DNA from: Escherichia coli
Lineage (GTDB): Bacteria > Pseudomonadota > Gammaproteobacteria > Enterobacterales > Enterobacteriaceae
Length of the DNA stretch: 64,000 nucleotides
Direction: 5' to 3' (one strand)
Assembly (NCBI GenBank): GCA_025336685.1
Contig: GCA_025336685.1_4717.1
Shown: piece after piece, positions 20,035-58,264 of the stretch
Layout of the letters: each line of letters begins with the position of its first letter
Position numbering within the stretch: the stretch's first letter is position 1
Program-made: the position numbers and the translations under genes
The notes under the pieces: model-generated
Databases searched by the model: none
Told to the model about the DNA's origin: nothing
The model's input: only the letters and a program-made list of their open reading frames with translations

Positions 20035-20093
20035 GGTGACCTCCACGCCAGGAATTAATTAAAAAAGACTTTACGATTTGCTGCGCTATCACG

Positions 20094-22505
20094 TTAAGCG
20101 TCCTCGATAGGCAAAGGTTTAACAATCAAACGATTGAGCGGATTCGATAGACGCATACTGACAGGCTTATACGCAACATGATTCGTCTCACTTAGAACCG
20201 CTGACCTGAAACGACCATTCACCTGTTTGTAGATTGGATCTATCCAAAGACCTTGAAGGTCGCGCTTACGGAAACGTTGTTCGAACGGTTTGATCGGGTT
20301 TATGGTCAGCCCATGCAGCGACTCCGACAGTAAACGCTCACGAAGGTCGCGTGGTGCCCGACCCGGGAACGGTGCAAGCCACAAACCATCGAGTGGGTTT
20401 TTACGGAAACGTAACGAGATGGGATCACTGATGACTTGTGCCCAATATTGCGTACTGAATCGAACCGTTTGGGTATTCTCGTAACCGCTACAGTCACACC
20501 AGGTTGGTTTCGGAGGTGCTTCCAAACTTTCAACCACCGATTCGCGCCAGTTCGTCATCGGGTTGTTATCATGTACGAATTTGATAACTTCCGTAGCCTG
20601 GTTATCCGTATCATGAACGTTTGCCTGTGCCCAGTCTTCCCACAGTTCTTCACTACCACTTACTAAACTCGAACCAAGACGAACGGCGATTTTGTTTAGT
20701 GGTTTGATTGGATCACTGTTGATTGTCTGGATAAAATGGATGGTGTAACTACTCAATGTCTTAAGCAGCTGCAGCATTCCGTATTGAATATCCTTAAGAC
20801 TGGTGACATCTTCCAAATCTTGACCGGTGGCCTTTGTGAAGATATCGAGAGCCAGAATTCCCGCCTCTTCTTGACTGATTGCGTCAAGCTCCCAATCCAT
20901 CGCTAAGAACCATTCCTTGTAAAGCTGCCCAATACCGAAGTCGACACCAACATCCATGTAAAAGTTTTCAACGATGGCTTCAGCCATACCTCGAGCTTGA
21001 TAATGCTCTTGGAGCTGGTACATGAACTGATGACGACGCCAGCCCTGGTAGATCTCGGTAACGACGTTGAGAAACTCTTCAGTACTGACGACCGGACGCA
21101 ATGTTACTTGCTTATCCAAACACCACCAGATCAGTTTATCGGGAATGATAGCGGGATCGGTAATGCTACGGAGATGGTCGAATGTCGGTAGCGTTAACAC
21201 CCTGACATGGTTAGCATGGATCTTAGGTACTTCAATCAGCGTCATGCCCATCGAATAGTTCAGCAAATACAAGAACAGCTTGTATGCATCTTTCATCGAC
21301 ATCGTCATGGTATCACCCGTCACCGGGTTGGTTGTCGTTAACCGTGACTGGTACATGCCTATAGCGCTAAGATGAATCCATTCGTTCAGTAGGAAATCAT
21401 ACTTAGGATACAATTCACTGTCTGTAAGGTCTTCCGCTTCACTTTCCAACACCTTGGTCGTTAAGGTGTTGTTGTCATGCATCGACATTTTCTCTATCGT
21501 GCGGTTAAGCTCGGTATAATACTCCGCTTCGTTATCCCGCGCTAAAGGGAACTGTTGCTGCATCACGGTGGTGACCTTACGCCTTACCGTGCCGTTGCCG
21601 ACGATCTCTTGAAGGTTAAGTGGTTTACGCTCCATGTAAACGGTAGGTTTTAACGTCTGAGGTATCTCGGAAGCGTCTTGTTTGATCGAGAACGCACCGA
21701 TTGGAATTCCACGTTCGGTTAATACCTTTTGAATGAGCTTATCGTAGTTTTCCGTTCTGCCCATGTTTCTTTCAACGTAAGCAATGTTACGATAAAACCA
21801 GAGCATTTGAGATTCGGTCATGTATCGCTCGAATCGATCAAGACCTTGATGGCTTGCCAGATAACTCCAGATATGGAAGCTATGGGCATAATGGGTATGA
21901 CAGTTTTCCCAACGAATACCTTTTATCATCTCAGGTATTTGTGTGAATAGAATGGCGTATAACGCAGGCCAATGAAGCATATCGACGCTTTCATACGCCG
22001 GGTGTTCCCAACGTCTAAAGTAATCATCGATTTCTTGCTGTAAGCGTGGAATAAGATTGGCCTCGCGCGATTCAACCTCTCGTGTATCGTACCAGAGAAT
22101 CTCATGATTGCGTGCCGCAATTGCTTTCTCGATATCGATGGGGTTAAGGATACCCAAGATCAACATACGTTGTTCTGGATACCGCGCAATTAAACGATTG
22201 AAATAATCTCCGCCGTACGCGTATTCCCTTGCTGTCATGCGATGTCGTAACATGTTTTCCTTGGTGAACTCGATCTCTTCGAGCGTATCCAGGGAATTTA
22301 CGGTCATCATTGTCTGACAAGGATGATACTCGCCAGCGAGATTCATGTAGTATAACCACGTGCGTGGGTCGTCCCCGACGGCCATCTGGTAGACTTCGGA
22401 AACCTTGAGGTTTAACCGTTCTGCCGTGATGTCGCTTTTAATAATCAGGGTGTCCGTTAGACGCTGCACGCTTTCCGAATAAAGCTGATAGTCAGTGTTG
22501 GACAC
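20094..22505 (-). CDS. large hypothetical protein (about 803 aa)
   Basis: ORF track 20094..22574 begins at TTG without RBS; in-frame GTG at 22505 has GGAGGA RBS 6 nt upstream and removes the head-on overlap with 22533..25439. Confidence 0.65.
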   Translation of the reverse strand: MSNTDYQLYSESVQRLTDTLIIKSDITAERLNLKVSEVYQMAVGDDPRTWLYYMNLAGEYHPCQTMMTVNSLDTLEEIEFTKENMLRHRMTAREYAYGGDYFNRLIARYPEQRMLILGILNPIDIEKAIAARNHEILWYDTREVESREANLIPRLQQEIDDYFRRWEHPAYESVDMLHWPALYAILFTQIPEMIKGIRWENCHTHYAHSFHIWSYLASHQGLDRFERYMTESQMLWFYRNIAYVERNMGRTENYDKLIQKVLTERGIPIGAFSIKQDASEIPQTLKPTVYMERKPLNLQEIVGNGTVRRKVTTVMQQQFPLARDNEAEYYTELNRTIEKMSMHDNNTLTTKVLESEAEDLTDSELYPKYDFLLNEWIHLSAIGMYQSRLTTTNPVTGDTMTMSMKDAYKLFLYLLNYSMGMTLIEVPKIHANHVRVLTLPTFDHLRSITDPAIIPDKLIWWCLDKQVTLRPVVSTEEFLNVVTEIYQGWRRHQFMYQLQEHYQARGMAEAIVENFYMDVGVDFGIGQLYKEWFLAMDWELDAISQEEAGILALDIFTKATGQDLEDVTSLKDIQYGMLQLLKTLSSYTIHFIQTINSDPIKPLNKIAVRLGSSLVSGSEELWEDWAQANVHDTDNQATEVIKFVHDNNPMTNWRESVVESLEAPPKPTWCDCSGYENTQTVRFSTQYWAQVISDPISLRFRKNPLDGLWLAPFPGRAPRDLRERLLSESLHGLTINPIKPFEQRFRKRDLQGLWIDPIYKQVNGRFRSAVLSETNHVAYKPVSMRLSNPLNRLIVKPLPIEDA

Positions 22506-22532
22506 GATCGGTCCTCCAAGGAGCCAGTGTAA

Positions 22533-25439
22533 ATGAACGATATAAATAAAGGGCGCGTCGCCCTCGAACGTCAAATGAGCAATAATGACGTTGCGAAGGC
22601 ACTCATGAACAAATTTGTCGCTCCTGCTCCGCAGTCACGTCTTTATAATACACGTGATGCGGAAGGAGCGAGCGGTCGTTTCGGGTTAGTTGTTCCCGAC
22701 CAAATGACGATGAACACGGTTACGCGTGCGACCGCGACAAACATCGAGGATAATAAAAACATCCTCGAGTTGTTCCCTGAACTTAAACGCGTGATGCAGA
22801 TCTACGTTGCCGCGTTGACGAACCCTAACGATCTTAAGACGGTCGAGATGTTTATCGATAGCGAAGATTTCCCGGGTAGGGTCGCAGAAATCGTTCAGCC
22901 GATGATCGATACCATCGACACGCATTTTAAGAATATCTATAAAATAAAGACGCTTATCCCTCGTATCATCGAAGACGTCTTCTTTATCAAGGGCAGTTAT
23001 AACTTCGTTGTTCTGCCAGAAAGCACGCTCGACCGCGCTATTAATGGTAACGGTCAACTGAAACTTGAAGAATACGGGTTTAGAGACAACCATTTCGCAA
23101 GTTGGGGGCTTTTAGGTAACGACAGTCGCAAACGTCACGAAAATCAATTACCTTCGACGGTCTCGATGGAAGATTATTTCTCGGGCGTTAATGAAACCAT
23201 ACCGTACGATCCCGTTGTCCGTATAGACAGCATTAAGTTTACCAATACCCTGCTTCGTGATAAGGACGGTAAATTCATTGAAGCGAAGATCGATATTCCG
23301 GATATGGTTACGGTTGTCGATAACCCAGATATTCTCCGCATGCCTATTTTGCATCAACGTCGAGCAGCGACAGCGGTGCAACGCGCGTTACGCACGAACA
23401 CGTTAGGAGGTAGTGGTTTGGTAACACTGTCAGGTGATCCAACCCTAACCGCTAACCGACGTGAGCTGTCGCAAGAACAGGTTAACGAGATTTGGAATAA
23501 ACTCAACATCCAACGTCACACCAAGGTATCTCCCGTTTACGCGCTGGCAACCCCAGATACGCTTGATCGTCAAAGCGTTGGCCATCCTGGTGTGATGCAC
23601 GTACCACCTGAGGCATTAGAACCCGTACATGCACCAGGTGATCCGGAGAACCATATCGGGTATTTAGTTCAGTTGGATGAGTTTGGTTATCCGGTGCGTT
23701 TGGTTGAGGATGCTGCGTATTACAAGCAGTTGGAAGGTCGGTTGTCGAAGATCACCGCGGATATCGCGGGTACGTCAAGCAACGGCATGGCGAGCGAGAT
23801 GATCGGTGCGGCCAAGAACATGATCCAAGGTACGTCGTGTAATCAAGTAGACATGTCGGCCTTCGTGTCATCGTACGAATCATTGATGCAACGCTACATC
23901 GTTGAACGAATCGTCAACGGTTATCTTGGTAGTGCGGTGGAGATCGGTGCGACATCATCGTTTTACCTATCGATGCTTGCTCGCAGTCTCGCCCACAAGC
24001 AGACCCGTGTTTTGTTTATTCCTCGAGAGATGGTGACATACATCGCTTATGAATACAACAAATACGGTATTGGTCGTTCACTGCTTGAAAGTACGAAGAT
24101 GATCTCGTCGCAACGAGCCATGCTCATGGTTCAAGAACTGATGGCGAAAATCAAAAGTTCGTTGAACTATACGACGCTAAGTGTAATGCTTGAAGATACC
24201 GACAGAAACCCGGTCGATACCGTCGAACAGGCACTACATAGTTTCGCTCGCGTCTACCAGTCTGGTTTCCCGTTGGGTGAAACTAACCCAATGGACATCA
24301 TCAACGCATACGAACGAAGCTCGATTCGATTGAAGGTTGAGGGGAATAACCCACGCTTCCCGAAATTGAATACGGACGTCAGCGTTGAGCAGCGTAACTA
24401 TCAGTCTCCTGATAATGAATTGATGGATCGTTACCGTCGTGACCACTTCATGGGTTTGGGAGTTTCTCCAGAGATTATCGATACTTCCTACCAATCTGAA
24501 TTCGCGGCTTCTGTGATTACCGCTAACGCGATGCAAGAGAAGCAGTTCACGGTTTGTCGTGAGGTTATCACGAACGGATTAACTGATCACATCAAGAAGT
24601 ACACGGCTTACAGTCCTGTATTGTTGACGTCGCTACGAAACACGGTTCGTGCGAACATGTCTAAGCTCTCCCAAGCACAATTGAAACAGCTTTTTGGTAG
24701 CGATTTCGAAAACGGCGTTATTCGTAACGTTAATGCTTATCAGGAGATCGACGACCAGTCAGCAACAATGGACCTGGATTATTCTAAACCGGAAGTTCAG
24801 GAAGTTATTGCCGATGCTTATGTATCCATGTTCTTAAACAGTCTGCAGGTGCGTTTACCGAACAGCAATGCTCGCCGCCTTGAAGATCAGGTACGTGAAT
24901 ATAATCAGTACAAGGAAGCGATTACAGCGCAACTTGATGATTATTTAACGCCTGATTACGTCATGGGTCTGGGTGGGGTTGATGAAACAACACTGCAGAT
25001 GATCCGTGCATGCATTATTGGTACCGCGATGCGTACATGGGCAAAAGAGAACAACTTCAATCAGGAGCTGGCTGATCTCTTCAGTCTCGACGATAAGAAG
25101 AATGCCGTGCAAGATTGGAAACGTGCATCCATGGAACATATTGAAATCATGGGTAAATGCATGGGTGATTTTGCATTGTATATTCAGAATCTGACGAAGA
25201 AGATTGAAGAGAAGATGGGAGATCAAGCACAGGACGGCAGCGTTTCATCTGATGGTTCTTGGTCGTCTGATTCAAGTAGTGATACCGGTTCTTCTGATGA
25301 CTTTGGCGGTGATGATTTCGGGGATACCGATTTCGATACCGAAACGATGGAGGAAACCTCAACAGAGGAGACAACCACGTCTGAGGATACGACTACCGAT
25401 ACAACGTCAGAAGACGAGACTTCAGGTGATATTGTCTAA
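22533..25439 (+). CDS. large structural-type protein with S/D/T/E-rich acidic C-terminal tail (portal-like feature, speculative)
   Basis: 968-aa ORF, ATG with AAGGAG RBS 9 nt upstream; last 70 aa are low-complexity acidic (SSDGSWSSDSSSDTGSSDDFGGDDFGDTDFDTE...). Confidence 0.75.
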   Translation: MNDINKGRVALERQMSNNDVAKALMNKFVAPAPQSRLYNTRDAEGASGRFGLVVPDQMTMNTVTRATATNIEDNKNILELFPELKRVMQIYVAALTNPNDLKTVEMFIDSEDFPGRVAEIVQPMIDTIDTHFKNIYKIKTLIPRIIEDVFFIKGSYNFVVLPESTLDRAINGNGQLKLEEYGFRDNHFASWGLLGNDSRKRHENQLPSTVSMEDYFSGVNETIPYDPVVRIDSIKFTNTLLRDKDGKFIEAKIDIPDMVTVVDNPDILRMPILHQRRAATAVQRALRTNTLGGSGLVTLSGDPTLTANRRELSQEQVNEIWNKLNIQRHTKVSPVYALATPDTLDRQSVGHPGVMHVPPEALEPVHAPGDPENHIGYLVQLDEFGYPVRLVEDAAYYKQLEGRLSKITADIAGTSSNGMASEMIGAAKNMIQGTSCNQVDMSAFVSSYESLMQRYIVERIVNGYLGSAVEIGATSSFYLSMLARSLAHKQTRVLFIPREMVTYIAYEYNKYGIGRSLLESTKMISSQRAMLMVQELMAKIKSSLNYTTLSVMLEDTDRNPVDTVEQALHSFARVYQSGFPLGETNPMDIINAYERSSIRLKVEGNNPRFPKLNTDVSVEQRNYQSPDNELMDRYRRDHFMGLGVSPEIIDTSYQSEFAASVITANAMQEKQFTVCREVITNGLTDHIKKYTAYSPVLLTSLRNTVRANMSKLSQAQLKQLFGSDFENGVIRNVNAYQEIDDQSATMDLDYSKPEVQEVIADAYVSMFLNSLQVRLPNSNARRLEDQVREYNQYKEAITAQLDDYLTPDYVMGLGGVDETTLQMIRACIIGTAMRTWAKENNFNQELADLFSLDDKKNAVQDWKRASMEHIEIMGKCMGDFALYIQNLTKKIEEKMGDQAQDGSVSSDGSWSSDSSSDTGSSDDFGGDDFGDTDFDTETMEETSTEETTTSEDTTTDTTSEDETSGDIV

Positions 25440-25468
25440 ACGGACGTAAAAAAATAACACATAGTTAA

Positions 25469-25503
25469 CCTTCTCCCCAACCCGATGAGGGAAGGGGAGA
25501 AGG
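25469..25503. terminator. conserved hairpin element, variant copy (loop GATGA)
   Basis: CCTTCTCCCC-AA-CCC-GATGA-GGG-AA-GGGGAGAAGG between convergent genes 22533..25439 and 25516..25797. Confidence 0.55.
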
Positions 25504-25515
25504 GCTATGCGCTAT

Positions 25516-25797
25516 TTAATTATTTCGAGAGGTTAACCACGATTCAATTGCGGTGAGGTTGCATTTCAGTTCACGCCAACTAGGGTGTGGTGGGATCACA
25601 GCACCTTTGTCAATTACGGTTAGCTGAACCTGGTATTTCTGTTGCATACGTGCTACCGTATCGCTTACCGAGAGGAAAAGCTGGTAACGTTCGTACGCTG
25701 TCAGTTCGCGGTCCTGATAAACCGCGTAGGTGGCTAACGTAACTTCGCGTAAGTCCTTTGCGTCCACAGAGACGGTGATGAGTTTATATTGACTCAT
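25516..25797 (-). CDS. small hypothetical protein (93 aa)
   Basis: ATG with AAGGAA RBS. Confidence 0.55.
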   Translation of the reverse strand: MSQYKLITVSVDAKDLREVTLATYAVYQDRELTAYERYQLFLSVSDTVARMQQKYQVQLTVIDKGAVIPPHPSWRELKCNLTAIESWLTSRNN

Positions 25798-30289: not shown

Positions 30290-31723
30290 TTACTTTTTCG
30301 ATGACGCCTTCTCAAGAATCTTGAAAAAGGTCATACCTATACCGACAACAGCCGCGGTTATACTCGCAGCGGCTTTCCAAACATCGACGTTACGTTGACG
30401 TCGTGCTTCTTCCGCTTCACGTTGTCTTTTTGCCTCTTCATCACGTCGACGTATCTCAGCAGCAAACTCGTCATGCTTACGTTTGGCTTCTTCGTCTCGA
30501 CGACGAAGTTCAGCGACGAATTCTTCATGTTTGCGTTTAGCCTCATCATCACGACGTTTTAAATCAGCTTGATAATCTTCGTGTATTTGTCTACGTAGAT
30601 CATCTTGACGTTTCATTTCGGCTTGGTGTTGTTCCATCCTACGTTTTTGTTCGTCTTTAAGCTGATCGAGTTCGGCTTTATGTTGTTCGTCGCGCAGCTT
30701 TGCGTCGGCGCGATGCGCTTCATGCATCTGTGCGATAACTGCCTTGTGTTCATCCGCCATACGTCGCATTTCAGCCATCACCCCTTTAAGGGTTTCTTCT
30801 GACGACTTACGTTCGTAGCTGCGTTGGTCGAAATCATTTTTGTAGGCTTCTTTTTGGATGGGATCGCGCCAATGCAATGCCGATTCACGCGTCGGAAAAA
30901 CATTGTACTTCCACATCTCTTTTTCCAAATCTTCGACCGGTACGAAGATGGAGTCATTATTCCCGAAGGTAACCAACATACCTGGCGCGCCTGCTCCATT
31001 CGTTGGTTTTATTTCGAACGCTTTCCCCAGCACGTTAACCCATAGGCTATACGGATTATGAAAGTCGGGTGGCGTCCAGTGGATAGTGAGTTGCGTTCCG
31101 AGAATCCGGAAACCCTCTGTCTTTCCTGTTAAACTACGCGCACATGTTGCGATGTAGGGGTGATCAATCCCTTTCGTAACATGGTCTGCGCTTTTGTATT
31201 CTCCTTTAACTTTTACGATTGCCACGTTGATTTGCGCGACATAAATAGGTTGATTAAAGTTCAACGTGTTGAGGTCAATTTGACATATCTCGTCCAGCGT
31301 ATCGTACCAGTCTTGCTGGTCTAATAGACGCGGTATTTTCTCTGTGTTAACGATGCGACGGATATGCGGTTTCCTTATCGCGTAACCTGTACCATTTTTA
31401 ACACGGAGTATATCCCGACGTCTACCCGCGTAGACGAAGTTTCTGAATGCACCATTCGCATTAGATACGTCATGGCTGTCAACTATTACAGGACTACGAA
31501 ATTTTGAACGTCGTACGATCCTGAATGTATTACTGTCCTCAACTCTACCAGGAATGTACTGGAACATATTGTCGGAGGTGATAACCAACACGGTATGGCC
31601 GGATTCATTAATACATGCCCACCCTAATTCCAGGTCATACAACGGTTCAGCATAACCGTCAATGCGATATGCGTACCATCCCCACGGTTCGAACGCGGTA
31701 TCACATATTGGCATGGAGGGCAT
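30290..31723 (-). CDS. tail-anchored membrane protein: N-terminal globular domain, ER/K-rich helix, C-terminal TM segment
   Basis: 477 aa, ATG with GGAGGTG RBS; residues about 330-450 are E/R/K/D/Q/H repeats (EEAKRKHEEF..RRRDEEAKRKHDEF..); C-terminal AAASITAAVVGIGMTFFKIL then KASSKK. Confidence 0.75.
   Translation of the reverse strand: MPSMPICDTAFEPWGWYAYRIDGYAEPLYDLELGWACINESGHTVLVITSDNMFQYIPGRVEDSNTFRIVRRSKFRSPVIVDSHDVSNANGAFRNFVYAGRRRDILRVKNGTGYAIRKPHIRRIVNTEKIPRLLDQQDWYDTLDEICQIDLNTLNFNQPIYVAQINVAIVKVKGEYKSADHVTKGIDHPYIATCARSLTGKTEGFRILGTQLTIHWTPPDFHNPYSLWVNVLGKAFEIKPTNGAGAPGMLVTFGNNDSIFVPVEDLEKEMWKYNVFPTRESALHWRDPIQKEAYKNDFDQRSYERKSSEETLKGVMAEMRRMADEHKAVIAQMHEAHRADAKLRDEQHKAELDQLKDEQKRRMEQHQAEMKRQDDLRRQIHEDYQADLKRRDDEAKRKHEEFVAELRRRDEEAKRKHDEFAAEIRRRDEEAKRQREAEEARRQRNVDVWKAAASITAAVVGIGMTFFKILEKASSKK
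30380..30560 (-). repeat. imperfect tandem repeat of about 54 nt inside 30290..31723
   Basis: Repeated cttacgtttggcttcttcgtctcgacgacgaagttcagcgacgaattcttcatg-type units encoding the RRRDEEAKRKH(E/D)EF(V/A)AE(L/I) repeats. Confidence 0.5.
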
Positions 31724-31931
31724 CGCTCACCTCCATCAGATTGAAAATTATCATGCATAACGCATTTCCCTTTTCTTGTTCTTATCAAACTGACAGCCGA
31801 CGGTTTCCAGTATCGCCCCCAGCGCGAGAACGACCTTACGTGTTGTCTATGCCTTATTAATCGCAGGCTTCTGTCACCTAGGTAATGTAAGCGTCAAATT
31901 TTTTCTATTCGCAACGATAAACGGCATAAAT

Positions 31932-31960
31932 CTCCCCCAACCCTTACGGGCTGAGGGAGG
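31932..31960 (-). terminator. conserved hairpin element, degenerate copy, 3' of major structural gene
   Basis: CTCCCCC-AA-CCC-TTAC-GGG-CTGA-GGGAGG about 95 nt downstream of the stop of 32057..34279. Confidence 0.4.
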
Positions 31961-32056
31961 CTGACTTATGTATCACGGTGCCGGATGAATGTCCGCAATG
32001 AAACCATCCGCAACGTTGTCGTCAAGAATATCATCCAACGAAGCAGCTACGGTAGT

Positions 32057-34279
32057 TCAGTTAGTCTGAACAGGCAGCTTGATGTTTTCGGTGTAGACCT
32101 TACGCAGGTTCACAACGTTAATCAGACCCAGCAGCGGGCAGTTGTTAACGAAGCGGCAGCGAGGCTGAACCATGGTTTCTTTAGAAACCTGACCGTTACG
32201 GGTAACCTGAGCAACAGATACCAGTTCCGGTACGTACAGGAACATACCGAAGGTCAGCGGATCCGGAGAACCCTGGATACCACGAGACAGGGTCACGAAG
32301 ATCTTATCACGCAGCAGAACGTTCGGGTTATCTACAACCACGAAGTTGAAGCTTACACCAACGGTACGGAAATCACCATCGGTCTGCAGGAACTGCGGGA
32401 TGTAGTTGTCAGTTGCTACCACGCAACGCGGTTTCTCATCAGCGTTGGAAGACAGCAGCTGCAGAGCTGGCTGATAACCAGACTCGGAGTACATGCGATA
32501 TGCCATCTCACGAATCACGTTCATGATCGCAGCGGACACTTCAGCACGACGTTCTGCAGTGGTGGTGCCCTGAACAGATTTCGCCAGGTCCAGATTGATT
32601 TCTTCGAACCACGGACGGATCAGGTAACGACCGAAACCTTCGATCTGGATGTCACCGAACTGACGGAAGCGAGAGGTCGCAACCGCTTTCAGTGCATCTT
32701 TGTAGCTGAACAGTTTCTCAACCATCAGGTTGTCGAAACGTGCGTTAGCAGCTTGGATCAGAACGTCCAGGTCAGCAGCGTTTTCTTCCCAATCCAGCGG
32801 ACGAGGAATGGAGAACGGAGCCAGCAGGCCGATTGCATAACGCTCTTGCTTCATGTTGAAGTCAAGGTGTTTACCACGTTCACGACGGTTGCTGTTGTTA
32901 CGGCGAATACGCAGTTCGTAACCAACCAGTTTGAAGCTCAGGTCGTCAGCCAGGTCTTTAAATTCTTGGCTCTTACGCGGCTGTTCGATGTTGTCCTGAT
33001 CAACCAGGCGATACAGTTCAGCGTTAGCACCGTTAACACGCAGACCTGCTTTCTCTACGTTGGAAGAACCGTAAACTTCGATAGCCAGCTGAGCAGCAGA
33101 TTTCGCATCGATGATGTCCTGCAGCGCTTCGGCTTTCGCACCTTTAACGTCAACGGTGTTCTCATCAACGAAGATGGAGTGGGTGTCGAACGCCAGGGTC
33201 ATTTTGCGGAAGTCGCCTTCCAGGGATTTCTGGAAACCGTTGGTAATCAGACCGGATACGTCGAACGGAACGTAAGAGGTCTTGCTGTGCTTGGCTGATT
33301 TGATTTCCACCAGGATTTTGGTCAGCGTGATCTGAGCATCCAGCGCATCGGTGTTGTCGCTGTAACCGTTAGCCAGAATGCTATCGTCTTCAGCGATACC
33401 GATCATGTCGATCAGTTTATCAACAGCCAGGTAAGACGTTTTGTAAGTTACGCCTTTAATCTCGATGTCGCGCGGAGCAACGATAGTTTTGTCAACGAAG
33501 TACTGCGCGTTAGCATCGTCGGCACGATAGATCGGATGCAGATCGGTCACGTCGTTGGACAGAACGTCGTTGTACATGAACGCATCCAGCAGCGGACGAC
33601 GTACCCAATCAGCCGGAGTACCGTCAGCGTTACGACGCAGGTGGTTGAACACCAGCGGACGACGGAAAGATACGTCGTAACCGATCTGGTTCGGAGCCAG
33701 AACGATGGTGTTGTACAGTTCGTTACCCATGCGGCTCAGACGAGAAGCCTTCACGTTGAACACAACGGAGTACGGCATCATGTCACGCAGTTCTTTCTGG
33801 TCGTAGGACAGCTGAACCAGTTCTTCAGATTCGCAACCGCAGGAATCAGCAGCCATCATGACGAAGTTAGAGCTGTCAACTTCACGGCCAGACGGAGTGG
33901 TGCTGATGTTCATGGAACGTGCTTGTTTAGCATATTCTACCGGGTTGCCATGAGCCAGCATGATCAGTGCTGCTGCACGAGCCTGCTGTGCGTTCATGGT
34001 GAACAGCTGTTCTTCAATACGCTGCTTCTCTTCCGGAGTGGTGGTTTCGAAGCCCAGCATGGACAGAACCGGTTCTTCTGCTTTACGGATGTCGCTGCTG
34101 AAGCTCTTAACATCCATATCGTTAACCAGTTTGTCCATGGATTTGAAATCAACCTTAGAAGCAGATTCCATAGACAGGAAGGTGTTCTCCAGACCTTTGT
34201 CTGCTGGTTTGCTACCATTAGCGGTCAGGAACTGGCGAGTGGCCGCGACCTGTTGGCTAAGAAGGGTTTTATCATTCAT
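32057..34279 (-). CDS. major virion structural protein (major capsid protein or tail sheath; capsid favoured)
   Basis: 740 aa, ATG with AAAGGA RBS; strongest codon bias in the window; size typical of jumbo-phage capsid or sheath proteins; identity not verifiable without a search. Confidence 0.8.
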   Translation of the reverse strand: MNDKTLLSQQVAATRQFLTANGSKPADKGLENTFLSMESASKVDFKSMDKLVNDMDVKSFSSDIRKAEEPVLSMLGFETTTPEEKQRIEEQLFTMNAQQARAAALIMLAHGNPVEYAKQARSMNISTTPSGREVDSSNFVMMAADSCGCESEELVQLSYDQKELRDMMPYSVVFNVKASRLSRMGNELYNTIVLAPNQIGYDVSFRRPLVFNHLRRNADGTPADWVRRPLLDAFMYNDVLSNDVTDLHPIYRADDANAQYFVDKTIVAPRDIEIKGVTYKTSYLAVDKLIDMIGIAEDDSILANGYSDNTDALDAQITLTKILVEIKSAKHSKTSYVPFDVSGLITNGFQKSLEGDFRKMTLAFDTHSIFVDENTVDVKGAKAEALQDIIDAKSAAQLAIEVYGSSNVEKAGLRVNGANAELYRLVDQDNIEQPRKSQEFKDLADDLSFKLVGYELRIRRNNSNRRERGKHLDFNMKQERYAIGLLAPFSIPRPLDWEENAADLDVLIQAANARFDNLMVEKLFSYKDALKAVATSRFRQFGDIQIEGFGRYLIRPWFEEINLDLAKSVQGTTTAERRAEVSAAIMNVIREMAYRMYSESGYQPALQLLSSNADEKPRCVVATDNYIPQFLQTDGDFRTVGVSFNFVVVDNPNVLLRDKIFVTLSRGIQGSPDPLTFGMFLYVPELVSVAQVTRNGQVSKETMVQPRCRFVNNCPLLGLINVVNLRKVYTENIKLPVQTN

Positions 34280-34428
34280 TGAAAGTATCCTTTACAGAAT
34301 TAACTTATATAAGTCGGTCGATAGACCATAGCGTACACGCGTGCATGCGCCACTATAGTATCAGTAAACACTTACCGTTATTGAGGTCGTGATACAACAC
34401 TAAAAATGCCGCATAACTTTTCCCTACG

Positions 34429-34833
34429 TCACAAACGACGCAGGCGATAATGGATGGAACGATTGGTGCAATATGAACGGAACAGCGGCAATTGCGCAAC
34501 TTCCGCAAGACTCATATTAATTCGCAGGTGTTCAATAACGGCGCTGTAGTTATCAGCAATACGATCGCTCAATAACTCTTCTGCCAATAAAGGAAGACAA
34601 TCGACAACAATCGCGATCACATCCTCATTAACATAACGCACCCGAACACTCAACGGACGTTTGTCTGGGTTGTAAGTTGGATCCGCCAAACGACGTTCAA
34701 TATCACGCGGATAGCTCGTCAGTAAATGGTAATAACCATTGTCATAACGATTGATGTACTCACACAGCACACCAACGTTCTTCTCTGGCGGTAAACCTGT
34801 TTCGTCATAGTGGATACGCAAACATACCACCAA
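34429..34833 (-). CDS. hypothetical protein (start uncertain)
   Basis: 134-aa ORF without ATG near the 5' end (TTG/GTG only); protein-like composition. Confidence 0.4.
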   Translation of the reverse strand: MVVCLRIHYDETGLPPEKNVGVLCEYINRYDNGYYHLLTSYPRDIERRLADPTYNPDKRPLSVRVRYVNEDVIAIVVDCLPLLAEELLSDRIADNYSAVIEHLRINMSLAEVAQLPLFRSYCTNRSIHYRLRRL

Positions 34834-35050
34834 GCAGGTTGTTAAGATGGACCGCAGGGTTCGCTTGTTCGTGTTCTTTCGTGATGAAGAAAGGCACGTT
34901 CTGGGCCGCGAAATAAAAACCTACATCATTGGGCGATAGTATGCCGAAAAGACTTTTAGGATCCAATAACACCTGTAAGTCATCACGCGCATTTCGAATA
35001 ATCGCGTGTTCTACCCAATTCGGAACGACGAGATATCGGAGTTCCTTCAT
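34805..35050 (-). CDS. small hypothetical protein (81 aa)
   Basis: ATG with GAGG RBS 8 nt upstream. Confidence 0.5.
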   Translation of the reverse strand: MKELRYLVVPNWVEHAIIRNARDDLQVLLDPKSLFGILSPNDVGFYFAAQNVPFFITKEHEQANPAVHLNNLLGGMFAYPL

Positions 35051-35089
35051 TATGATTACCTCTTTGCAAGTATCGAAAGGATTGAGTCG

Positions 35090-36700
35090 ATGGACCCAAA
35101 ACAGATAGCCATTAAGATTATTACGTTACTGTTTCGTAACGCACAATTGAACCATCCCGATCCCAGTACGATCGACCATGTTAAATCCGTCTTAGATAAA
35201 GTCGAACCCCCGAAAAACCATCTCGCTACGGACATAGATAGAGAGGTTTTCAACAACCTGATGAATACCATTCATTGGATGTTGGAACAACCGTTATCGG
35301 AACCTTTCGACAAACAACAGTTGTTACAAAGGATACGTTTAGATTGCCTTGAGCAAAGCAATCTTTACGAGATTCTTGCCGACGGACTGTACGATATCGA
35401 AGACGATGCTCATATCAGTAAGGTCTGTTCGCTTTATTACAACGAATTGCGTAACCTGATTACCCGCCGTCGTGTTTTCGAAACCTTTAGAAACACGTAC
35501 ATGGATATCAGTAACGGGCGACTTGGGGATAAAGAATTTTTCGACGCGATGGCGAATTTGAAATTATCGCTTGACAGTATCGAAATGGATACCGAAAATC
35601 CCGAAGAGATGTCGTGTATGGTTGATGGCTTTATTGCTGACAGCGAAGACGATATCGAGAAAGTCGAACGTATGTTCGTTAAAGCGATGGAACGTAACAG
35701 TCCTGAAGGTGGGTTTGTAACCGGCTGGCAAGGTTTTAATAAAATGTTGGGGTCGGTCGGCGTTTTACGTCGCGGTACCTTAGGACTGATTGGTGCGATG
35801 CAGCACCGAAATAAATCGGGTGTGTTGTTAAAACTGTTCACGCATCTGGCATTGTACAACAAACCTCATTTCTTTTTTCCGGAGCGAGCAAAGAAAGCGT
35901 TACTGATTCATTTGTCAACAGAAAACGAAGTAGAAGAAAACACGCTTCAGATATACAAGAACATGCGAGAACAGGAAACAGGCGAATATGTCGATATTCG
36001 TAAGATTGACCCTCGCGAGGCATCACGTTATGTGTTGAAGGTGTTCAACGATGCGGGTTTCTCTGTTTGTATGCGTCGTGTTGACGGGATGAGTTACAAA
36101 CAACTCGCTAATCTCATCGACCATTTCGAACGCATGGGTTATGAGGTCATGGCGTTGTTCATTGACTATCTGAAAATGTTCTCATCGGAAGGGCTGGATA
36201 GAAATGGACCGACCGGCGCATGGCTCCAAGAACTCTTCAACAAAGTTCGTAACCTCTGCAGTGTTAAACGTATTTTAGGTATGACCGTACACCAGCTGTC
36301 ATCCGACGCGAAGATGCGTGCACGTGACGGTAACGATGAAGAGTTTGTTGACCAAGTCGCAGGCTTAAGTTACTGGGATGGTTGTAAAGGGATTGACCGT
36401 GAGATCGATCTTGAAGTGATTGTTGATATCGTTAAGGAGCCAGGTAAACGTCAAAGCTGGCAGGTCTTTGCGTTAGGGAAAGACCGTCAACCGGATAACG
36501 GTTCAACGAAACCTGAGGATAAACATTTCACAATGCCATTCCAAACCATCGGGATGCTTCCTGATGATTACGGTAAGAAAGCAGTATACTGTCGTAAGGT
36601 TGGTGGACAACCAGTCTCCGAGGGAGGTAAAGGTCCGTGGAACAAGTTCGATGAAAACGCAGCACCAAGTAATGAATTACAATTTGATTTAGAATTTTAA
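35090..36700 (+). CDS. hypothetical protein (about 536 aa)
   Basis: ORF track 35006..36700 starts at GTG; ATG at M29 has AAAGGA RBS and avoids overlap with divergent 34805..35050. Confidence 0.7.
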   Translation: MDPKQIAIKIITLLFRNAQLNHPDPSTIDHVKSVLDKVEPPKNHLATDIDREVFNNLMNTIHWMLEQPLSEPFDKQQLLQRIRLDCLEQSNLYEILADGLYDIEDDAHISKVCSLYYNELRNLITRRRVFETFRNTYMDISNGRLGDKEFFDAMANLKLSLDSIEMDTENPEEMSCMVDGFIADSEDDIEKVERMFVKAMERNSPEGGFVTGWQGFNKMLGSVGVLRRGTLGLIGAMQHRNKSGVLLKLFTHLALYNKPHFFFPERAKKALLIHLSTENEVEENTLQIYKNMREQETGEYVDIRKIDPREASRYVLKVFNDAGFSVCMRRVDGMSYKQLANLIDHFERMGYEVMALFIDYLKMFSSEGLDRNGPTGAWLQELFNKVRNLCSVKRILGMTVHQLSSDAKMRARDGNDEEFVDQVAGLSYWDGCKGIDREIDLEVIVDIVKEPGKRQSWQVFALGKDRQPDNGSTKPEDKHFTMPFQTIGMLPDDYGKKAVYCRKVGGQPVSEGGKGPWNKFDENAAPSNELQFDLEF

Positions 36701-36725
36701 ACGCAAAAAAAAAGATTGTACGGTT

Positions 36726-36757
36726 CCCTCCTCCAACCCGTAAGGGAAGGAGGAGGG
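36726..36757. terminator. conserved hairpin element, canonical copy
   Basis: CCCTCCTCC-AA-CCC-GTAA-GGG-AA-GGAGGAGGG between convergent genes 35090..36700 and 36773..37099; A9 tract just upstream. Confidence 0.6.
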
Positions 36758-36772
36758 TTATGACCGCGGTGG

Positions 36773-37099
36773 TTAACTTATTGTCATAAATTCGCTTGGT
36801 GAGAATTTCCAACCATTCTCATTGAGAAGTGTGTTGAGTTTCGCTGCGACAATAAGCCATGCATGCATAGCCGTTATGTCGTATTGGCGATTCACTCGAC
36901 GTTGGTTTTCGATATTGATTTGCTCCTGTTCAGTGATGTTTGGATAGAGTGAGATAGCGCTGGGCTTACCCAGCGCGCTAGCCATCACCGCAGTACATTC
37001 ACTGATAATGTTGTTTAAGTGGTAGTTGTATACCGTTCCGCGCATGACGCGATGACGGCATTCGATAATAGCGTCGTAAATGATTTCTCGAGTAATCAT
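36773..37099 (-). CDS. hypothetical protein (108 aa)
   Basis: ORF with ATG; weak RBS. Confidence 0.5.
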   Translation of the reverse strand: MITREIIYDAIIECRHRVMRGTVYNYHLNNIISECTAVMASALGKPSAISLYPNITEQEQINIENQRRVNRQYDITAMHAWLIVAAKLNTLLNENGWKFSPSEFMTIS

Positions 37100-38214: not shown

Positions 38215-39117
38215 TTAGAAATTATTGCCGAACCGGTTATGGTTGTATGGTTGGTAGTGTCCGTAATTGCCTGGGAAGCCACCATACGTCGTAGGCTCCG
38301 GTTTAGGGACTTCCATAATCGGATTTTTAGAATTGATCGCCATCACGTAAAGGGTTACGGGTGATGCTGCGTGGCCCATTTCGACGACCACACGGCGGAT
38401 ATAATCAATGTATGCTGTTATTGCAGGCGTCAGTTTGTCTCCTTCGGTAGTTATAACGGTGCCGTCGGAAAGAATCTCACGAACCGCGCACCATTTACCA
38501 AGATGAACTCCTTGCTGCGGCTTTACTCCAGCAGAGATAGAGAGATAGGTATCGTACGTCGTTTGATGATACGGATGACTATAAATAGATTCCGCTTTGT
38601 TTTCGTCTTTCCCTAAGTACTCGCCTTGCTTAGGAGTATGAGTTGATATCATATCGGTATTTTCCACGAATGTCTTTCCTTCGAGTTGTTTGATTAATCG
38701 TTTAACCGATTCAGTTATGTTGTTGTGTCTAGGGATCAGCTTTAAGTAAACAGTCGGTAACTGGATTGTTGACCCATCACTACTGCGCGGATAAGATAAT
38801 TTGTAAAACTGTTCAAAAATCCGCCGTAACGCTTCGTTGTCTGAAGTTGCCAATTTAACATAGGAGCATCGTCCTTTAGCATTGGGATTGTAGAGAAGGA
38901 GAATAACGTCTTCGTCAGTACGTGTATCCTGAGGATGACAAGCGATGTAGTGAATGGGAATAGCCGTATCTTTTTCGTCTCCCGGTTTGATAGACAATGA
39001 AAAATCATGAGTTTCTTTTAACGTTCGTAACGTGCAGGATGCGTCGTCACTATTAAGTAAGAACACACCGAAACGCACGCTTTCGTATGCTGACGGGTCG
39101 CGTATTAATAAGGTCAT
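38215..39117 (-). CDS. hypothetical protein, paralogue family C
   Basis: ORF track 38215..39195 (TTG); ATG at M27 has AAGGAG RBS; shares HxTTYDxYL(S/T)I(S/T)(A/G)GV...G(K/E)W..(V/I)REI..DG block with 39203..39976. Confidence 0.65.
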   Translation of the reverse strand: MTLLIRDPSAYESVRFGVFLLNSDDASCTLRTLKETHDFSLSIKPGDEKDTAIPIHYIACHPQDTRTDEDVILLLYNPNAKGRCSYVKLATSDNEALRRIFEQFYKLSYPRSSDGSTIQLPTVYLKLIPRHNNITESVKRLIKQLEGKTFVENTDMISTHTPKQGEYLGKDENKAESIYSHPYHQTTYDTYLSISAGVKPQQGVHLGKWCAVREILSDGTVITTEGDKLTPAITAYIDYIRRVVVEMGHAASPVTLYVMAINSKNPIMEVPKPEPTTYGGFPGNYGHYQPYNHNRFGNNF

Positions 39118-39202
39118 GTTCGGCTCCTTGATTACGATAAGGATGATTGCGGTTTTGTGGTGCTGGTAGGGCCCTAAACAAAGGAACCCTACCAATATTA
39201 GG

Positions 39203-39976
39203 TTATTCAGGATCGGCGTAGAAATGGTGAGGATAGCCGGAGTACGATCCTGCGTTACCGGCTATGGATTCTTTCTGGGAATCGACGACGAGCGCATAGA
39301 ACTGTCGGGAATTTGTTAGCGTTGAGAAATAAGCGGAAAGGACTTTTTCATTCAACGCATCGCAAGGTAGACAGGTGCGACCGCAAAACGTAACGATACG
39401 GCCGTCAGGATAGATCTCACGAATCATTCTCCACTCACCGATATCCACTGGTGATGGTGCTGCTACACCACCTGTTATCGTTAAGTAACGATCGTACGTG
39501 GTATGGCATTCAGGATGAATATAGATCGGCTTGTTCGTTTCGACAGGTTCCGAAGTGTCTCGACGACTAAGGAGTTCAACGACTTCAAGATAAATCGTTG
39601 GTAGATCGCGGAGAATACCGGTGTTACGACGTTTCTTTGTGATTCGCGGACGAATCTCGTTAAGAGCGTATTCGAGCTTACGTTCAGCTTCGTACGCATC
39701 GAGTTTTATTAGGTGGCCCGGTTCATCGGAATGATCCTGAGTTATGTAAACGAAATACGTGTTGTCTTTTGCAGCGCGAAAGATTCGAGCGACCTTAAAT
39801 GTTTCTACAGTGCGATAACCAAGGCGCGATTGATTTTCCACAGGAGAAAATATCCAATGTCGTCCTTCGTCCGCCCCAACAATTTCGTTGAAACTATCCG
39901 TTTGTTCTGGGACCTGGTAGTCAGCCATTAATGTATCAAGAGCGTCATCGGCCAGTTTGGTGTAAATATCTGTCAT
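39203..39976 (-). CDS. hypothetical protein, paralogue family C
   Basis: 257 aa, ATG with GAGGA RBS. Confidence 0.65.
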   Translation of the reverse strand: MTDIYTKLADDALDTLMADYQVPEQTDSFNEIVGADEGRHWIFSPVENQSRLGYRTVETFKVARIFRAAKDNTYFVYITQDHSDEPGHLIKLDAYEAERKLEYALNEIRPRITKKRRNTGILRDLPTIYLEVVELLSRRDTSEPVETNKPIYIHPECHTTYDRYLTITGGVAAPSPVDIGEWRMIREIYPDGRIVTFCGRTCLPCDALNEKVLSAYFSTLTNSRQFYALVVDSQKESIAGNAGSYSGYPHHFYADPE

Positions 39977-57132: not shown

Positions 57133-58020
57133 TTATAGCCGACAAACGACGTCCGATTCATGCCTGATGGCTTCCTGGTTAGCCTTAGAGATGATATAGG
57201 TGGAGGCGATTGCTCCAGAAGAAGGGATCTTTGTGCTCGCTGCAGCTTTTGCGGCATTGATGCGCGCAGCATTAACAGCCTTGCGGATACCCTCTTTATC
57301 CATACGTGAGATTCGTTTGTGTTCACGAACCAGGTCACTAAGCAGGATCATGTCGCTCCAGAAAGACAGCTCACCCGCCATCATGCGATGCCAACGTGCT
57401 CGCCAGGTGTTCTGTGGGCCGCCGATCGCTAAAATCGACGCAAGCACTTCCGCTGGTGAACTTGCAATACGCATGCTGATGTTCAATGGCATTTTCATCG
57501 TTGCCTGACCATCGGTCAGCGTCACGGTTAAGAACTTGCCGGTGACCGCGTTTGCATCTTTGTTCAGCAATTCGATCGCTGCGTCGCTGGCCCCAACATC
57601 GAGGCTATTTTTTTGTTTCCCCAGCAGGTTGAATCCTTTGTCATCAAGGAAAACAAGGCTTTTGCTATCCGCACTTTCCAGTGCTAATTTAACAGCCTTA
57701 TCCATCATGTTAGCGTTACGGTTTGGATTCACACGACCCAGCGTTTTATCGACACTGATATTACCCACCTGCATGATGGTGTTCAACGCCAGTAAATAGA
57801 ACCCGGTATACATATTTTCAGCGGTGCGCATGCAGTTGCCTAACGCATTGCGTGCGTCGCTATAATACAACTCACGTTCAAAGATCAACGGCGCGATAAC
57901 GCGTGAAGGTTGTGAGAGTTCAACCAGCGAACCTGGCTGGATAAGTTTATTAACTTCGTAGACTTTAGCGATACCGGACGCAACAACGTTAACAGCGTCG
58001 GCAATTTCTGATGCTACCAT
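57133..58020 (-). CDS. hypothetical protein (295 aa), possible 5' part of an interrupted gene
   Basis: ATG with AAGGA RBS; good codon usage. Confidence 0.7.
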   Translation of the reverse strand: MVASEIADAVNVVASGIAKVYEVNKLIQPGSLVELSQPSRVIAPLIFERELYYSDARNALGNCMRTAENMYTGFYLLALNTIMQVGNISVDKTLGRVNPNRNANMMDKAVKLALESADSKSLVFLDDKGFNLLGKQKNSLDVGASDAAIELLNKDANAVTGKFLTVTLTDGQATMKMPLNISMRIASSPAEVLASILAIGGPQNTWRARWHRMMAGELSFWSDMILLSDLVREHKRISRMDKEGIRKAVNAARINAAKAAASTKIPSSGAIASTYIISKANQEAIRHESDVVCRL

Positions 58021-58054
58021 ATTGAAATCCTTATTTACAAATAAAGGAAAGAAA

Positions 58055-58264
58055 ATGTCTAATTACTACGACCAAGCTATTCAAACCATTCAGGAAGATA
58101 ATGCGTCGTTAACACCCGAAGCTGTGGAGGCAGCGGGCAATGCGGTGTTATTCACTGATTCAGATTGGGCAATGGCGCGGAAGAATATTCGTACCAGTGT
58201 CGGTCAAGGGACATACGGACAGTATCGCCAGACGGTATCGGAATGTGTCACCTATTCCGGGTAA
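58055..58264 (+). CDS. small ORF (about 69 aa), possible N-terminal part of a frameshift fusion with 58140..59258
   Basis: ORF track 58022..58264; ATG at M12 has AAAGGAAAG RBS; good codon usage; ends GGG TAA. Confidence 0.5.
   Translation: MSNYYDQAIQTIQEDNASLTPEAVEAAGNAVLFTDSDWAMARKNIRTSVGQGTYGQYRQTVSECVTYSG

What the first reader, a model, noticed from the sequence alone, without database searches (positions are those of the whole stretch)
22505..22533. Head-to-head genes with back-to-back ribosome-binding sites and almost no intergenic space
The two large genes 20094..22505 (minus) and 22533..25439 (plus) start 27 nt apart, with their RBSs forming one composite sequence TCCTCCAAGGAG (GGAGGA on the minus strand, AAGGAG on the plus strand). 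A second divergent pair (57133..58020 and 58055..58264) is 34 nt apart. Promoters for both pairs must therefore lie inside coding sequence, or the genes are transcribed from distant promoters as long antisense-overlapping RNAs.
Basis: seen in the sequence. Interest (0 to 1): 0.45.

Follow-up and report, generated by a model that had tools for sequence, protein, structure and literature searches.

The report
Promoter-less gap between two phage genes
Two large virion genes of a Goslar-like jumbo phage (the portal gene and its neighbour) start 27 bases apart on opposite strands, so their promoters must sit inside each other's coding sequence, an arrangement shared by the whole phiKZ-like family and therefore real but not new in kind.

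Summary
The window is a Goslar-like nucleus-forming jumbo phage, about 95% identical to Escherichia phage Goslar.

**Pair 1.** The genes are the homologue of Goslar gp35 / phiKZ gp128 (20094..22505, minus) and the portal, gp36 / phiKZ gp129 (22533..25439, plus). The 27-nt spacer holds only two abutting ribosome-binding sites and no promoter motif.

**Family-wide layout.** The head-to-head arrangement is conserved across Chimalliviridae. Spacers are 11–35 nt in 9 of 10 lineages examined.

**Promoter evidence.**
- In phiKZ, published 5'-end mapping puts the portal start site 70 nt inside gp128.
- Published Goslar RNA-seq shows both pairs are late genes that depend on the phage nucleus.
- The junction sits in the longest invariant stretch of the window, 22246–22648 (403 nt). 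Synonymous sites there are almost frozen (p = 8e-12).
- Six phiKZ-clade genomes show the same pattern around their mapped start site.

**Open point.** No TATG late-promoter core lies within about 630 nt on either side, so the exact start sites remain unknown.

**Pair 2.** The start codons and the 34-nt spacer are right. The stated gene ends are artefacts of frameshifting indels in this assembly.

**Verdict.** This is a real, conserved case of promoters embedded in coding sequence. The kind is known, and interest is modest.

The parts
20094..22505 (-). Virion structural gene, homologue of Goslar gp35 / phiKZ gp128 (803 aa, GTG start). It is the first gene of a minus-strand run of five virion genes.
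   Evidence: ORF list. 97.8% identical to Goslar gp035. phrog_3222. PDB chains 11lx_Bh and 36za_sR, and phiKZ PHIKZ128 9xqs_C.
22506..22532 (.). 27-nt spacer GATCGGTCCTCCAAGGAGCCAGTGTAA. It holds only the two ribosome-binding sites and their spacings.
   Evidence: Identical in Goslar and in two IMG/VR relatives.
22512..22517 (-). Ribosome-binding site GGAGGA of the gp35 homologue, 6 nt before its GTG.
   Evidence: The hexamer is 5.9x enriched in Goslar intergenic DNA.
22518..22523 (+). Ribosome-binding site AAGGAG of the portal gene, 9 nt before its ATG.
   Evidence: The hexamer is 5.7x enriched in Goslar intergenic DNA.
22533..25439 (+). Portal protein gene (968 aa), homologue of Goslar gp36 / phiKZ gp129. 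It is a lone plus-strand gene between minus-strand genes.
   Evidence: PDB 11ed_J 'Portal Protein gp36' and 9xpe_M PHIKZ129. phrog_3004, head and packaging..
22246..22648 (.). Invariant block. No variable site in four genomes that differ at 6.7% of columns elsewhere. Only two variable sites out to 22804. This is the inferred location of the two embedded promoters and the overlapping 5' leaders.
   Evidence: It is the longest identical run between the window and Goslar in 57 kb. Third-codon positions vary at 3/180 in the first 90 codons of both genes against 299/1593 elsewhere, p=8e-12.
22549..22565 (-). G+C-rich hairpin GAGGGCG-acg-CGCCCTT followed by TATTTATATC on the minus strand. It lies inside portal codons 6-11, 44 nt upstream of the gp35-homologue start. 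Its role is unknown; it is a candidate leader or start element.
   Evidence: first entry in the terminator-like list.
22617..22675 (.). Long imperfect hairpin inside the portal 5' coding region. The 22480-22810 stretch that contains it is unusually structured on both strands.
   Evidence: Fold z-scores of -3.9 (minus strand) and -3.3 (plus strand). Sliding-window scan.
25469..25503 (.). Bidirectional terminator hairpin after the portal gene. A TATG follows it on both strands (plus 25506-25509, minus 25463-25460).
   Evidence: z = -5.6 and -6.1. phiKZ has the equivalent terminators T059/T060.
57133..58020 (-). Pair 2: N-terminal 295 codons of the Goslar gp061 / phiKZ gp089 homologue. The gene is cut short in this assembly by indels.
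58021..58054 (.). Pair 2 spacer, 34 nt, with TCCTT and AAGGA ribosome-binding sites 10 nt apart.
   Evidence: It lies inside a 281-nt run identical to Goslar (57815-58095).
58055..59258 (+). Pair 2: homologue of Goslar gp062 / phiKZ gp088 (Pfam Phage_TTP_15). The reading frame is broken by a 2-nt deletion at 58216.
58212..58215 (-). Minus-strand TATG 192 nt upstream of the gp061-homologue start, inside the gp062-homologue coding sequence. It is a candidate late promoter placed much like phiKZ P046.
35051..35089 (.). It has a TATG at 35051-35054, and a TATGCCG at 34940 inside the gp042 homologue.

Best explanation
The junction is the conserved divergent boundary between the portal gene and the gp35/gp128-type virion gene of a Goslar-like chimallivirus. 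The 27-nt spacer is purely translational: two Shine-Dalgarno sequences set back to back.

Both genes are late genes transcribed inside the phage nucleus by the phage's own non-virion RNA polymerase. In phiKZ that polymerase's promoter is a four-base TATG at the start site and has no upstream -35/-10 architecture, so it can sit inside coding sequence.

On this reading, each gene's start site lies within the first few hundred bases of the partner's coding sequence. The two mRNAs therefore carry 5' leaders that are antisense to each other's 5' coding region. Each base near the junction then serves two purposes, which freezes synonymous sites.

What is shown and what is inferred:
- Shown here: the anatomy, conservation of the arrangement across the family, the absence of promoter motifs in the spacer, and the nucleotide-level constraint.
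- Shown in the literature: late, nucleus-dependent expression in Goslar, and an intragenic portal start site in phiKZ.
- Inferred: that this phage's start sites lie inside the invariant block.
For: - **Anatomy and start codons:**
- **Family-wide arrangement:** spacers are phiKZ 35, PhiPA3 35, Special G 32, RP12 about 34, an SPN3US-like phage 11, Halocynthia phage 13, and IMG/VR relatives 27 and about 31. Only a Vibrio phage has 116.
- **phiKZ ONT-cappable-seq** (bioRxiv 10.1101/2023.10.13.562163, supplement): portal unit TU100 starts at 130258 (P070, late promoter). This is inside gp128 (128154..130328) and 106 nt before the portal ATG at 130364. P046 at 88779 is inside gp088 and serves gp089.
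- **Promoter size:** the nvRNAP promoter is a four-base TATG at the start site (PMC4666361; PMC12809450).
- **Goslar RNA-seq** (bioRxiv 10.1101/2023.09.20.558163, Supplementary Table 2): gp035, gp036, gp061 and gp062 fall by log2 -5.4 to -7.6 when the nuclear shell is knocked down. The upstream gene gp037 is unchanged.
- **Constraint in this clade:** the 403-nt invariant block is the longest identical run in 57 kb of window-versus-Goslar alignment. Third-position variation is 3/180 against 299/1593, p=8e-12.
- **Independent replicate:** in six phiKZ-clade genomes the longest invariant run (130099-130407, 309 nt) spans the junction and contains the mapped P070 start site.
- **No alternative coding explanation:** no overlapping ORF explains the block, and no Rfam family matches it.
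Against: - No TATG occurs on either strand within about 630-690 nt of the junction. Yet TATG is 2.3x enriched in Goslar upstream regions and is essential for phiKZ nvRNAP in vitro. The proximal promoters, if present, are therefore non-canonical.
- The position homologous to phiKZ P070 reads TTTTAATAATC here, not TATG.
- The phiKZ map found no start site at all for gp128 or gp088. One gene of each pair therefore has no experimental precedent.
- Reduced synonymous variation near 5' ends also occurs in some ordinary genes of the window, for example the gp034 homologue at 0/40.
- The third tight pair shows no such constraint.
Confidence: 0.6

Rival explanations
1. The promoters are distal, and the genes are read as long RNAs antisense to the neighbour. 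The portal would be transcribed from the TATG cluster at 21872-21899, giving a leader of about 640 nt. The gp35 homologue would be transcribed from the minus-strand TATG at 23198, or from the TATG that follows the terminator hairpin at 25460, giving a 2.9-kb leader antisense to the whole portal gene.
For: - These are the nearest canonical TATG cores.
- The 21872-21899 cluster (three TATG on plus, one on minus) is invariant in four genomes.
- Hairpin-plus-TATG units are the commonest promoter-like element in Goslar and phiKZ.
- phiKZ has the same hairpin-TATG on the minus strand downstream of its portal gene (T059).
Against: - Sequence between 21900 and 22245 varies at the normal rate, so conservation does not extend back to the distal cluster.
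- The context scores of these TATGs are no better than those of TATGs in coding background.
- phiKZ 5'-end mapping found no minus-strand start at the homologous hairpin, and it placed the portal start only 106 nt upstream of the ATG.
- In phiKZ, reads of the equivalent unit (gp130) end at or just past terminator T059.
Confidence: 0.22
2. Transcription starts inside the short spacers, giving very short leaders that contain little more than the ribosome-binding site.
For: The phage polymerase needs only a few bases at the start site. The third tight pair does have a TATG in its 39-nt spacer, 36 nt before the ATG.
Against: - The pair-1 spacer contains no TATG or early motif on either strand.
- A start upstream of each ribosome-binding site would have to fall within 12 nt of the partner's start codon.
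- The pair-2 spacer's only TATG is the gp061-homologue start codon itself.
- The phiKZ homologues start 106 and 215 nt upstream, not in their 35- and 39-nt spacers.
Confidence: 0.05
3. The tight spacing is an annotation artefact. One or both genes would really start at a downstream codon, for example portal Met15 at 22575 or Met25 at 22605.
For: In-frame ATGs exist at 22575 and 22605. The minus-strand gene uses the rarer GTG start.
Against: - Strong ribosome-binding sites at ideal spacing precede only the proposed starts.
- Protein homology to phiKZ and other family members begins within the first 4-8 residues of both proteins.
- PDB entries use the full-length sequences.
- Independent lineages show the same tight geometry.
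Confidence: 0.03
4. The invariant block reflects something other than transcription control. Possibilities are a recently exchanged recombination tract or a DNA-level element such as a protein-binding or packaging-related site.
For: Phage genomes are mosaics, and long identical runs occur elsewhere in the window. The block's right-hand part is unusually structured on both strands.
Against: The same junction-centred invariant block appears independently in the phiKZ clade, where it encloses a mapped start site. Four Goslar-like genomes all share it while varying independently on both flanks.
Confidence: 0.1

Closest known systems
phiKZ gp128/gp129 (portal) divergent junction with late promoter P070
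   Same: - The two proteins are homologous.
- The orientation is the same head-to-head one, with a 35-nt spacer against 27 nt here.
- A bidirectional terminator follows the portal gene in both.
- Both have a junction-centred invariant block.
   Different: phiKZ has a canonical TATG start site 70 nt inside gp128. This phage has no TATG within about 630 nt, and its start sites have not been mapped.
phiKZ gp088/gp089 junction with start site P046
   Same: It is homologous to pair 2, with a 39-nt spacer against 34 nt here. The start site for gp089 lies 175 nt inside gp088. The window has a minus-strand TATG at a similar place, 192 nt upstream of the gp061-homologue start.
   Different: The orientation in the record is mirrored. 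In this assembly both genes carry frameshifting indels.
phiKZ-type non-virion RNA polymerase late promoters (TATG at the start site)
   Same: Expression is late and depends on the phage nucleus. TATG is enriched in Goslar upstream regions, and hairpin-TTATGC units occur as in phiKZ.
   Different: The defining TATG is absent near pair 1.
Overlapping divergent promoters in phiKZ (P072/P073 between gp130 and gp131)
   Same: These are divergent late genes whose start sites (134420 plus, 134428 minus) give 5' ends that overlap by 9 nt.
   Different: There both start sites fit in a 97-nt spacer. Here the spacer is too short, so any overlap must extend into coding sequence.

Membership tests
Chimalliviridae portal / gp128-type divergent core gene pair | The plus-strand gene encodes the portal protein. 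| tested here: met
   PDB 11ed_J 'Portal Protein gp36' covers residues 1-968. phiKZ PHIKZ129 9xpe_M matches at E=2.6e-75. phrog_3004, head and packaging.
Chimalliviridae portal / gp128-type divergent core gene pair | The minus-strand gene is the gp128-type virion protein. | tested here: met
   PHIKZ128 9xqs_C matches at E=9.5e-111. The Goslar chain covers residues 1-803. phrog_3222. 290 phage records hold a homologue.
Chimalliviridae portal / gp128-type divergent core gene pair | Head-to-head orientation with a short spacer, conserved across lineages. | tested here: met
   Nine of 10 lineages have spacers of 11-35 nt, read directly from the sequences. Two annotated starts (PhiPA3, Halocynthia phage) had to be corrected by homology.
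phiKZ-type nvRNAP late promoter | A TATG core with the G as the start site, upstream of the gene. | tested here: not met
   None in the 27-nt spacer. The nearest are at 21875-21899 (plus strand) and 23198 (minus strand), 634-693 nt away.
phiKZ-type nvRNAP late promoter | Expression depends on the phage nucleus and nvRNAP (the late class). | tested here: met
   Taken from the literature, not from sequence. Goslar gp035 and gp036 reads fall about 50-100-fold in the ChmA knockdown, while gp037 is unchanged.
phiKZ-type nvRNAP late promoter | A mapped primary 5' end at the motif. | not testable with these tools
   No 5'-end data for Goslar-like phages were found.
Chimallivirus early (virion RNA polymerase) promoter | The TTTCACGGC-TATATTAC-YTANGTGA consensus upstream of the gene. 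| tested here: not met
   Eight intergenic copies in Goslar and two in the window (3807, 40047), none near either pair. There are only partial look-alikes: TATAACCACGTG at about 22351 and TATAATAC at 22644 and 57861. The genes are not early.
Host sigma-70 promoter | -35 and -10 hexamers with 16-18 nt spacing near the gene starts. | tested here: not met
   Nine weak matches in 13 kb against 20.0 ± 4.4 expected in shuffles, and none at the junction. The family transcribes independently of the host polymerase (PMC4666361).

The most novel reading that the evidence does not exclude
The ~400-560-nt invariant block would be a dedicated bidirectional control module embedded in two coding sequences. 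It would use a class of non-virion-polymerase start sites that lacks TATG. It would produce portal and gp35 mRNAs with mutually antisense 5' leaders, and their pairing or transcriptional interference would set the ratio of two proteins that sit in the same portal-vertex assembly. Conservation of the tight junction across the family would then reflect selection for this coupling rather than mere genome compaction.
Probability: 0.15. Interest if true: 0.55.

Novelty: new member of a known kind. Interest (0 to 1): 0.3.

Why it matters
The finding shows how far a phage with its own minimal-promoter polymerase can compress divergent genes: the space between them holds only ribosome-binding sites, and control sequence is written into codons.

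There are three practical consequences:
- Anyone recoding, deleting or tagging the 5' ends of the portal or gp35 genes in Goslar-like or phiKZ-like phages is likely to disturb the neighbour's expression.
- The invariant blocks mark where to look for the still-unmapped promoters of gp128-type and gp088-type genes.
- The absence of TATG near pair 1 suggests the late-promoter rule taken from phiKZ is incomplete for this clade.

Tried and rejected
- **TGATG as an alternative start-site core.** It is seen near candidate positions and in phiKZ P073, but it is not enriched in Goslar upstream regions (0.72x). Dropped.
- **A weight matrix of TATG context.** Trained on intergenic against coding TATGs, it separates the classes poorly and picked out no candidate near pair 1.
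- **Early-promoter look-alikes.** TATAACCACGTG at about 22351 and TATAATAC at 22644 and 57861 were found post hoc. Their counts are near chance, and the genes are not early. They are kept only as weak leads.
- **A hidden overlapping gene.** No ORF longer than 39 aa lies within the block apart from a 71-aa ORF that mostly lies outside it.
- **Known RNA families.** None at gathering threshold in the whole window. One sub-threshold CRISPR-repeat match is noise.
- **An anti-SD/SD hairpin in TCCTCCAAGGAG.** The loop would be only 2 nt, which is sterically impossible.
- **Supplementary tables.** None were held for the published phiKZ or 201phi2-1 papers. The bioRxiv version supplied the phiKZ tables.
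- **Technical failures.** One literature search failed on term length, and one folding scan timed out.
Full report
**Identity of the window.** Window 20000-26000 is 95% identical to Escherichia phage vB_EcoM_Goslar, a nucleus-forming jumbo phage of the phiKZ-like family Chimalliviridae. Two IMG/VR contigs are equally close. The window matches none of them exactly, so it is a distinct Goslar-like genome.

**Observation, pair 1.** The sequence reads ...CAC(22503-22505) GATCGG TCCTCC AAGGAG CCAGTGTAA ATG(22533)....
- The minus-strand gene starts with GTG at 22505. GGAGGA lies 6 nt upstream of it.
- The plus-strand gene starts with ATG at 22533. AAGGAG lies 9 nt upstream of it.
- The 27-nt spacer is completely used by these elements.
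- Goslar is annotated identically, as gp035 31466..33877 (minus) and gp036 33905..36814 (plus).

Both starts are well supported:
- tblastn matches to the minus-strand protein begin at residues 1-6 in many phages.
- The N-termini of both proteins align with their phiKZ counterparts from about residue 4-8 (sequences).
- PDB entries contain the full-length chains: 'Portal Protein gp36' covering 1-968, and a virion structural protein covering 1-803. Twelve portal and six gp35 chains occur in one entry. phiKZ PHIKZ129 and PHIKZ128 are the next hits.

The plus-strand gene is therefore the portal. The minus-strand gene is the gp128-type virion protein.

**Observation, pair 2.** CAT at 58018-58020 and ATG at 58055 are 34 nt apart, as in Goslar gp061/gp062. 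Relative to Goslar, the window has a 2-nt deletion at 58216 and a cluster of 1-4 nt indels between 56650 and 57157. So '58055..58264' is the N-terminal fragment of a 401-aa gene (Pfam Phage_TTP_15), and '57133..58020' is the first 295 codons of a 368-aa gene.

**Is the spacing unusual?** I rebuilt the Goslar genome with its 247 annotated genes. It has 20 divergent pairs, with spacers of 27, 31, 34, 39, 54, 64, 96 ... 254 nt. The four tight pairs form the low tail of this distribution.

Pair 1 is head-to-head throughout the family. The spacers, read directly from the sequences, are:

| Lineage | Spacer (nt) |
|---|---|
| phiKZ | 35 |
| PhiPA3 (annotated start is too far downstream) | 35 |
| Special G | 32 |
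| RP12 | about 34 |
| SPN3US-like Salmonella phage | 11 |
| Halocynthia phage JM-2012 | 13 |
| IMG/VR relative L014 | 27 |
| IMG/VR relative L016 | about 31 |
| Vibrio phage Yong MS31 | 116 |

The pair-2 homologues in phiKZ (gp088/gp089) are 39 nt apart. They are adjacent and divergent in several other genera.

**What promoters look like in this phage.** K-mer enrichment in Goslar upstream regions recovers two motifs.
- TTTCACGGC-TATATTAC-YTANGTGA is the phiKZ-type early promoter. It has eight intergenic copies.
- A G+C-rich hairpin followed directly by (T)TTATGC[CT]G(T) contains the phiKZ late start-site core TATG.

TATG is 2.3-fold enriched upstream of genes. In phiKZ the late promoter is just TATG, with the G as the start site, and it is recognised by the beta-like subunit (PMC4666361; PMC12809450). 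Promoters this small can be written into codons.

**Where are the promoters of the tight pairs?**
- The pair-1 spacer has no TATG and no early motif.
- No TATG occurs on either strand within 634 nt (plus) or 693 nt (minus) of the starts.
- Sigma-70-like matches are fewer than expected by chance, and none lies at the junction.

*Direct evidence from the homologous loci in phiKZ.* ONT-cappable-seq (bioRxiv 10.1101/2023.10.13.562163, supplement) gives the following.
- Portal unit TU100 starts at 130258 (P070, classed as a late promoter, ...AAATTTTATGA). gp128 occupies 128154..130328, so the start is 70 nt inside gp128. It is 106 nt before the portal ATG at 130364.
- gp089 is read from P046 at 88779, 175 nt inside gp088.
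- No start site was reported for gp128 or gp088.

*Evidence from Goslar itself.* Published RNA-seq shows that gp035, gp036, gp061 and gp062 drop by log2 -5.4 to -7.6 when the nuclear shell protein is knocked down. gp037, the gene immediately upstream on the minus strand, is unchanged (bioRxiv 10.1101/2023.09.20.558163, Supplementary Table 2). Both pairs are therefore late, nucleus-dependent genes. gp035 is not simply read through from gp037.

**Footprint of embedded control sequence.**
- Among four Goslar-like genomes that differ at 6.7% of aligned columns, positions 22246-22648 (403 nt) contain no variable site. Only two variable sites occur out to 22804.
- This is the longest identical run between the window and Goslar in 57 kb of alignment. 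The pair-2 junction lies in the seventh longest run, 57815-58095.
- Third-codon positions vary at 3/180 in the first 90 codons of the two genes, against 299/1593 in the rest (Fisher p = 8e-12).
- No overlapping ORF and no Rfam family explains this.

As an independent test I aligned six phiKZ-clade genomes. Their longest invariant run in 4.6 kb is 130099-130407 (309 nt). It is again centred on the junction, and it contains the mapped P070 start site. The geometry is the same in both clades: about 230-260 nt of the gp128-type gene and about 45-115 nt of the portal gene.

**Other features near the junction.**
- A G+C-rich hairpin followed by TATTTATATC lies on the minus strand at 22565-22549, inside portal codons 6-11.
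- A long hairpin lies at about 22617-22675 and a perfect 9-bp inverted repeat at 22744-22768. Together they make 22480-22810 unusually structured on both strands, with z = -3.9 and -3.3.
- The portal gene ends at a bidirectional terminator hairpin (25469-25503). A TATG follows it on each strand, as in phiKZ T059/T060.

**Conclusion.** The spacer is translational only. The promoters are embedded in coding sequence, most likely within the invariant block, and they give divergent mRNAs with mutually antisense leaders.

The main weakness is the missing TATG. Either this clade's late polymerase accepts other start sites here, or the genes are read from distal TATGs: the 21872-21899 cluster, 23198, or the post-terminator TATG at 25460. 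Sequence between the distal plus-strand cluster and the block varies normally, and the phiKZ map shows a proximal start. Both points favour the proximal model, but only 5'-end mapping can settle it.

The phenomenon is a conserved instance of a known kind, intragenic promoters in phiKZ-like phages. It is not a new mechanism.

Noticed in passing
window 1745(-), 31929(-), 45394(-), 54015(-), 25469-25512 (both strands); about 20 sites in Goslar: G+C-rich hairpins are followed immediately by (T)TTATGC[CT]G(T). The same layout occurs in phiKZ terminators T057, T059 and T060 and in late promoter P049. Terminator and TATG start site seem to form one unit. Alternatively, the TATG is part of the termination signal, because it appears even where no gene follows.
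   Followed up: partly
window 3807(-) and 40047(-): Two copies of the early-promoter consensus (TTTCACGAC-TATATTAC-CT...) match the eight intergenic copies found in Goslar, all of which are on the minus strand.
   Followed up: partly
window 38245-39971: About 1.7 kb is absent from Goslar. It carries two ORFs (38215..39195 and 39203..39976, minus strand) with no Pfam match, and it sits just downstream of the early-promoter-like motif at 40047.
   Followed up: partly
window 56650-57160 and 58216: A cluster of 1-4 nt indels relative to Goslar breaks the reading frames of the gp060, gp061 and gp062 homologues. These are probably assembly errors but could be pseudogenes. The 58216 deletion lies directly next to the minus-strand TATG at 58212-58215.
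   Followed up: partly
window 35048-35092 and 34940-34946: A third head-to-head pair (gp042 and the gp043 helicase homologue) is 39 nt apart. A TATG abuts the minus-strand gene's start codon (35051-35054). A TATGCCG lies inside the gp042-homologue coding sequence, 147 nt before the helicase ATG.
   Followed up: partly
window 21872-21899: Four TATG motifs (three on the plus strand, one on the minus strand) fall within 28 nt inside the gp35-homologue coding sequence. The cluster is invariant in four genomes.
   Followed up: partly
window 22617-22675 and 22744-22768: A long imperfect hairpin and a perfect 9-bp inverted repeat lie inside the first 80 codons of the portal gene. This stretch folds much better than shuffled sequence on both strands.
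   Followed up: partly
L009 (phiKZ 130099-130407); phiKZ supplement tables: In phiKZ no start site has been reported for gp128 or gp088, the partners of the two genes whose start sites were mapped inside them. How these genes are transcribed appears to be open even in the model phage.
   Followed up: partly
L018 (PhiPA3) and L023 (Halocynthia phage JM-2012): The annotated starts of the PhiPA3 portal gene and of the JM-2012 gp128-type gene are probably too far downstream. Homology and ribosome-binding sites place the starts 35 and 13 nt from the partner gene, not 254 and 172 nt.
   Followed up: partly
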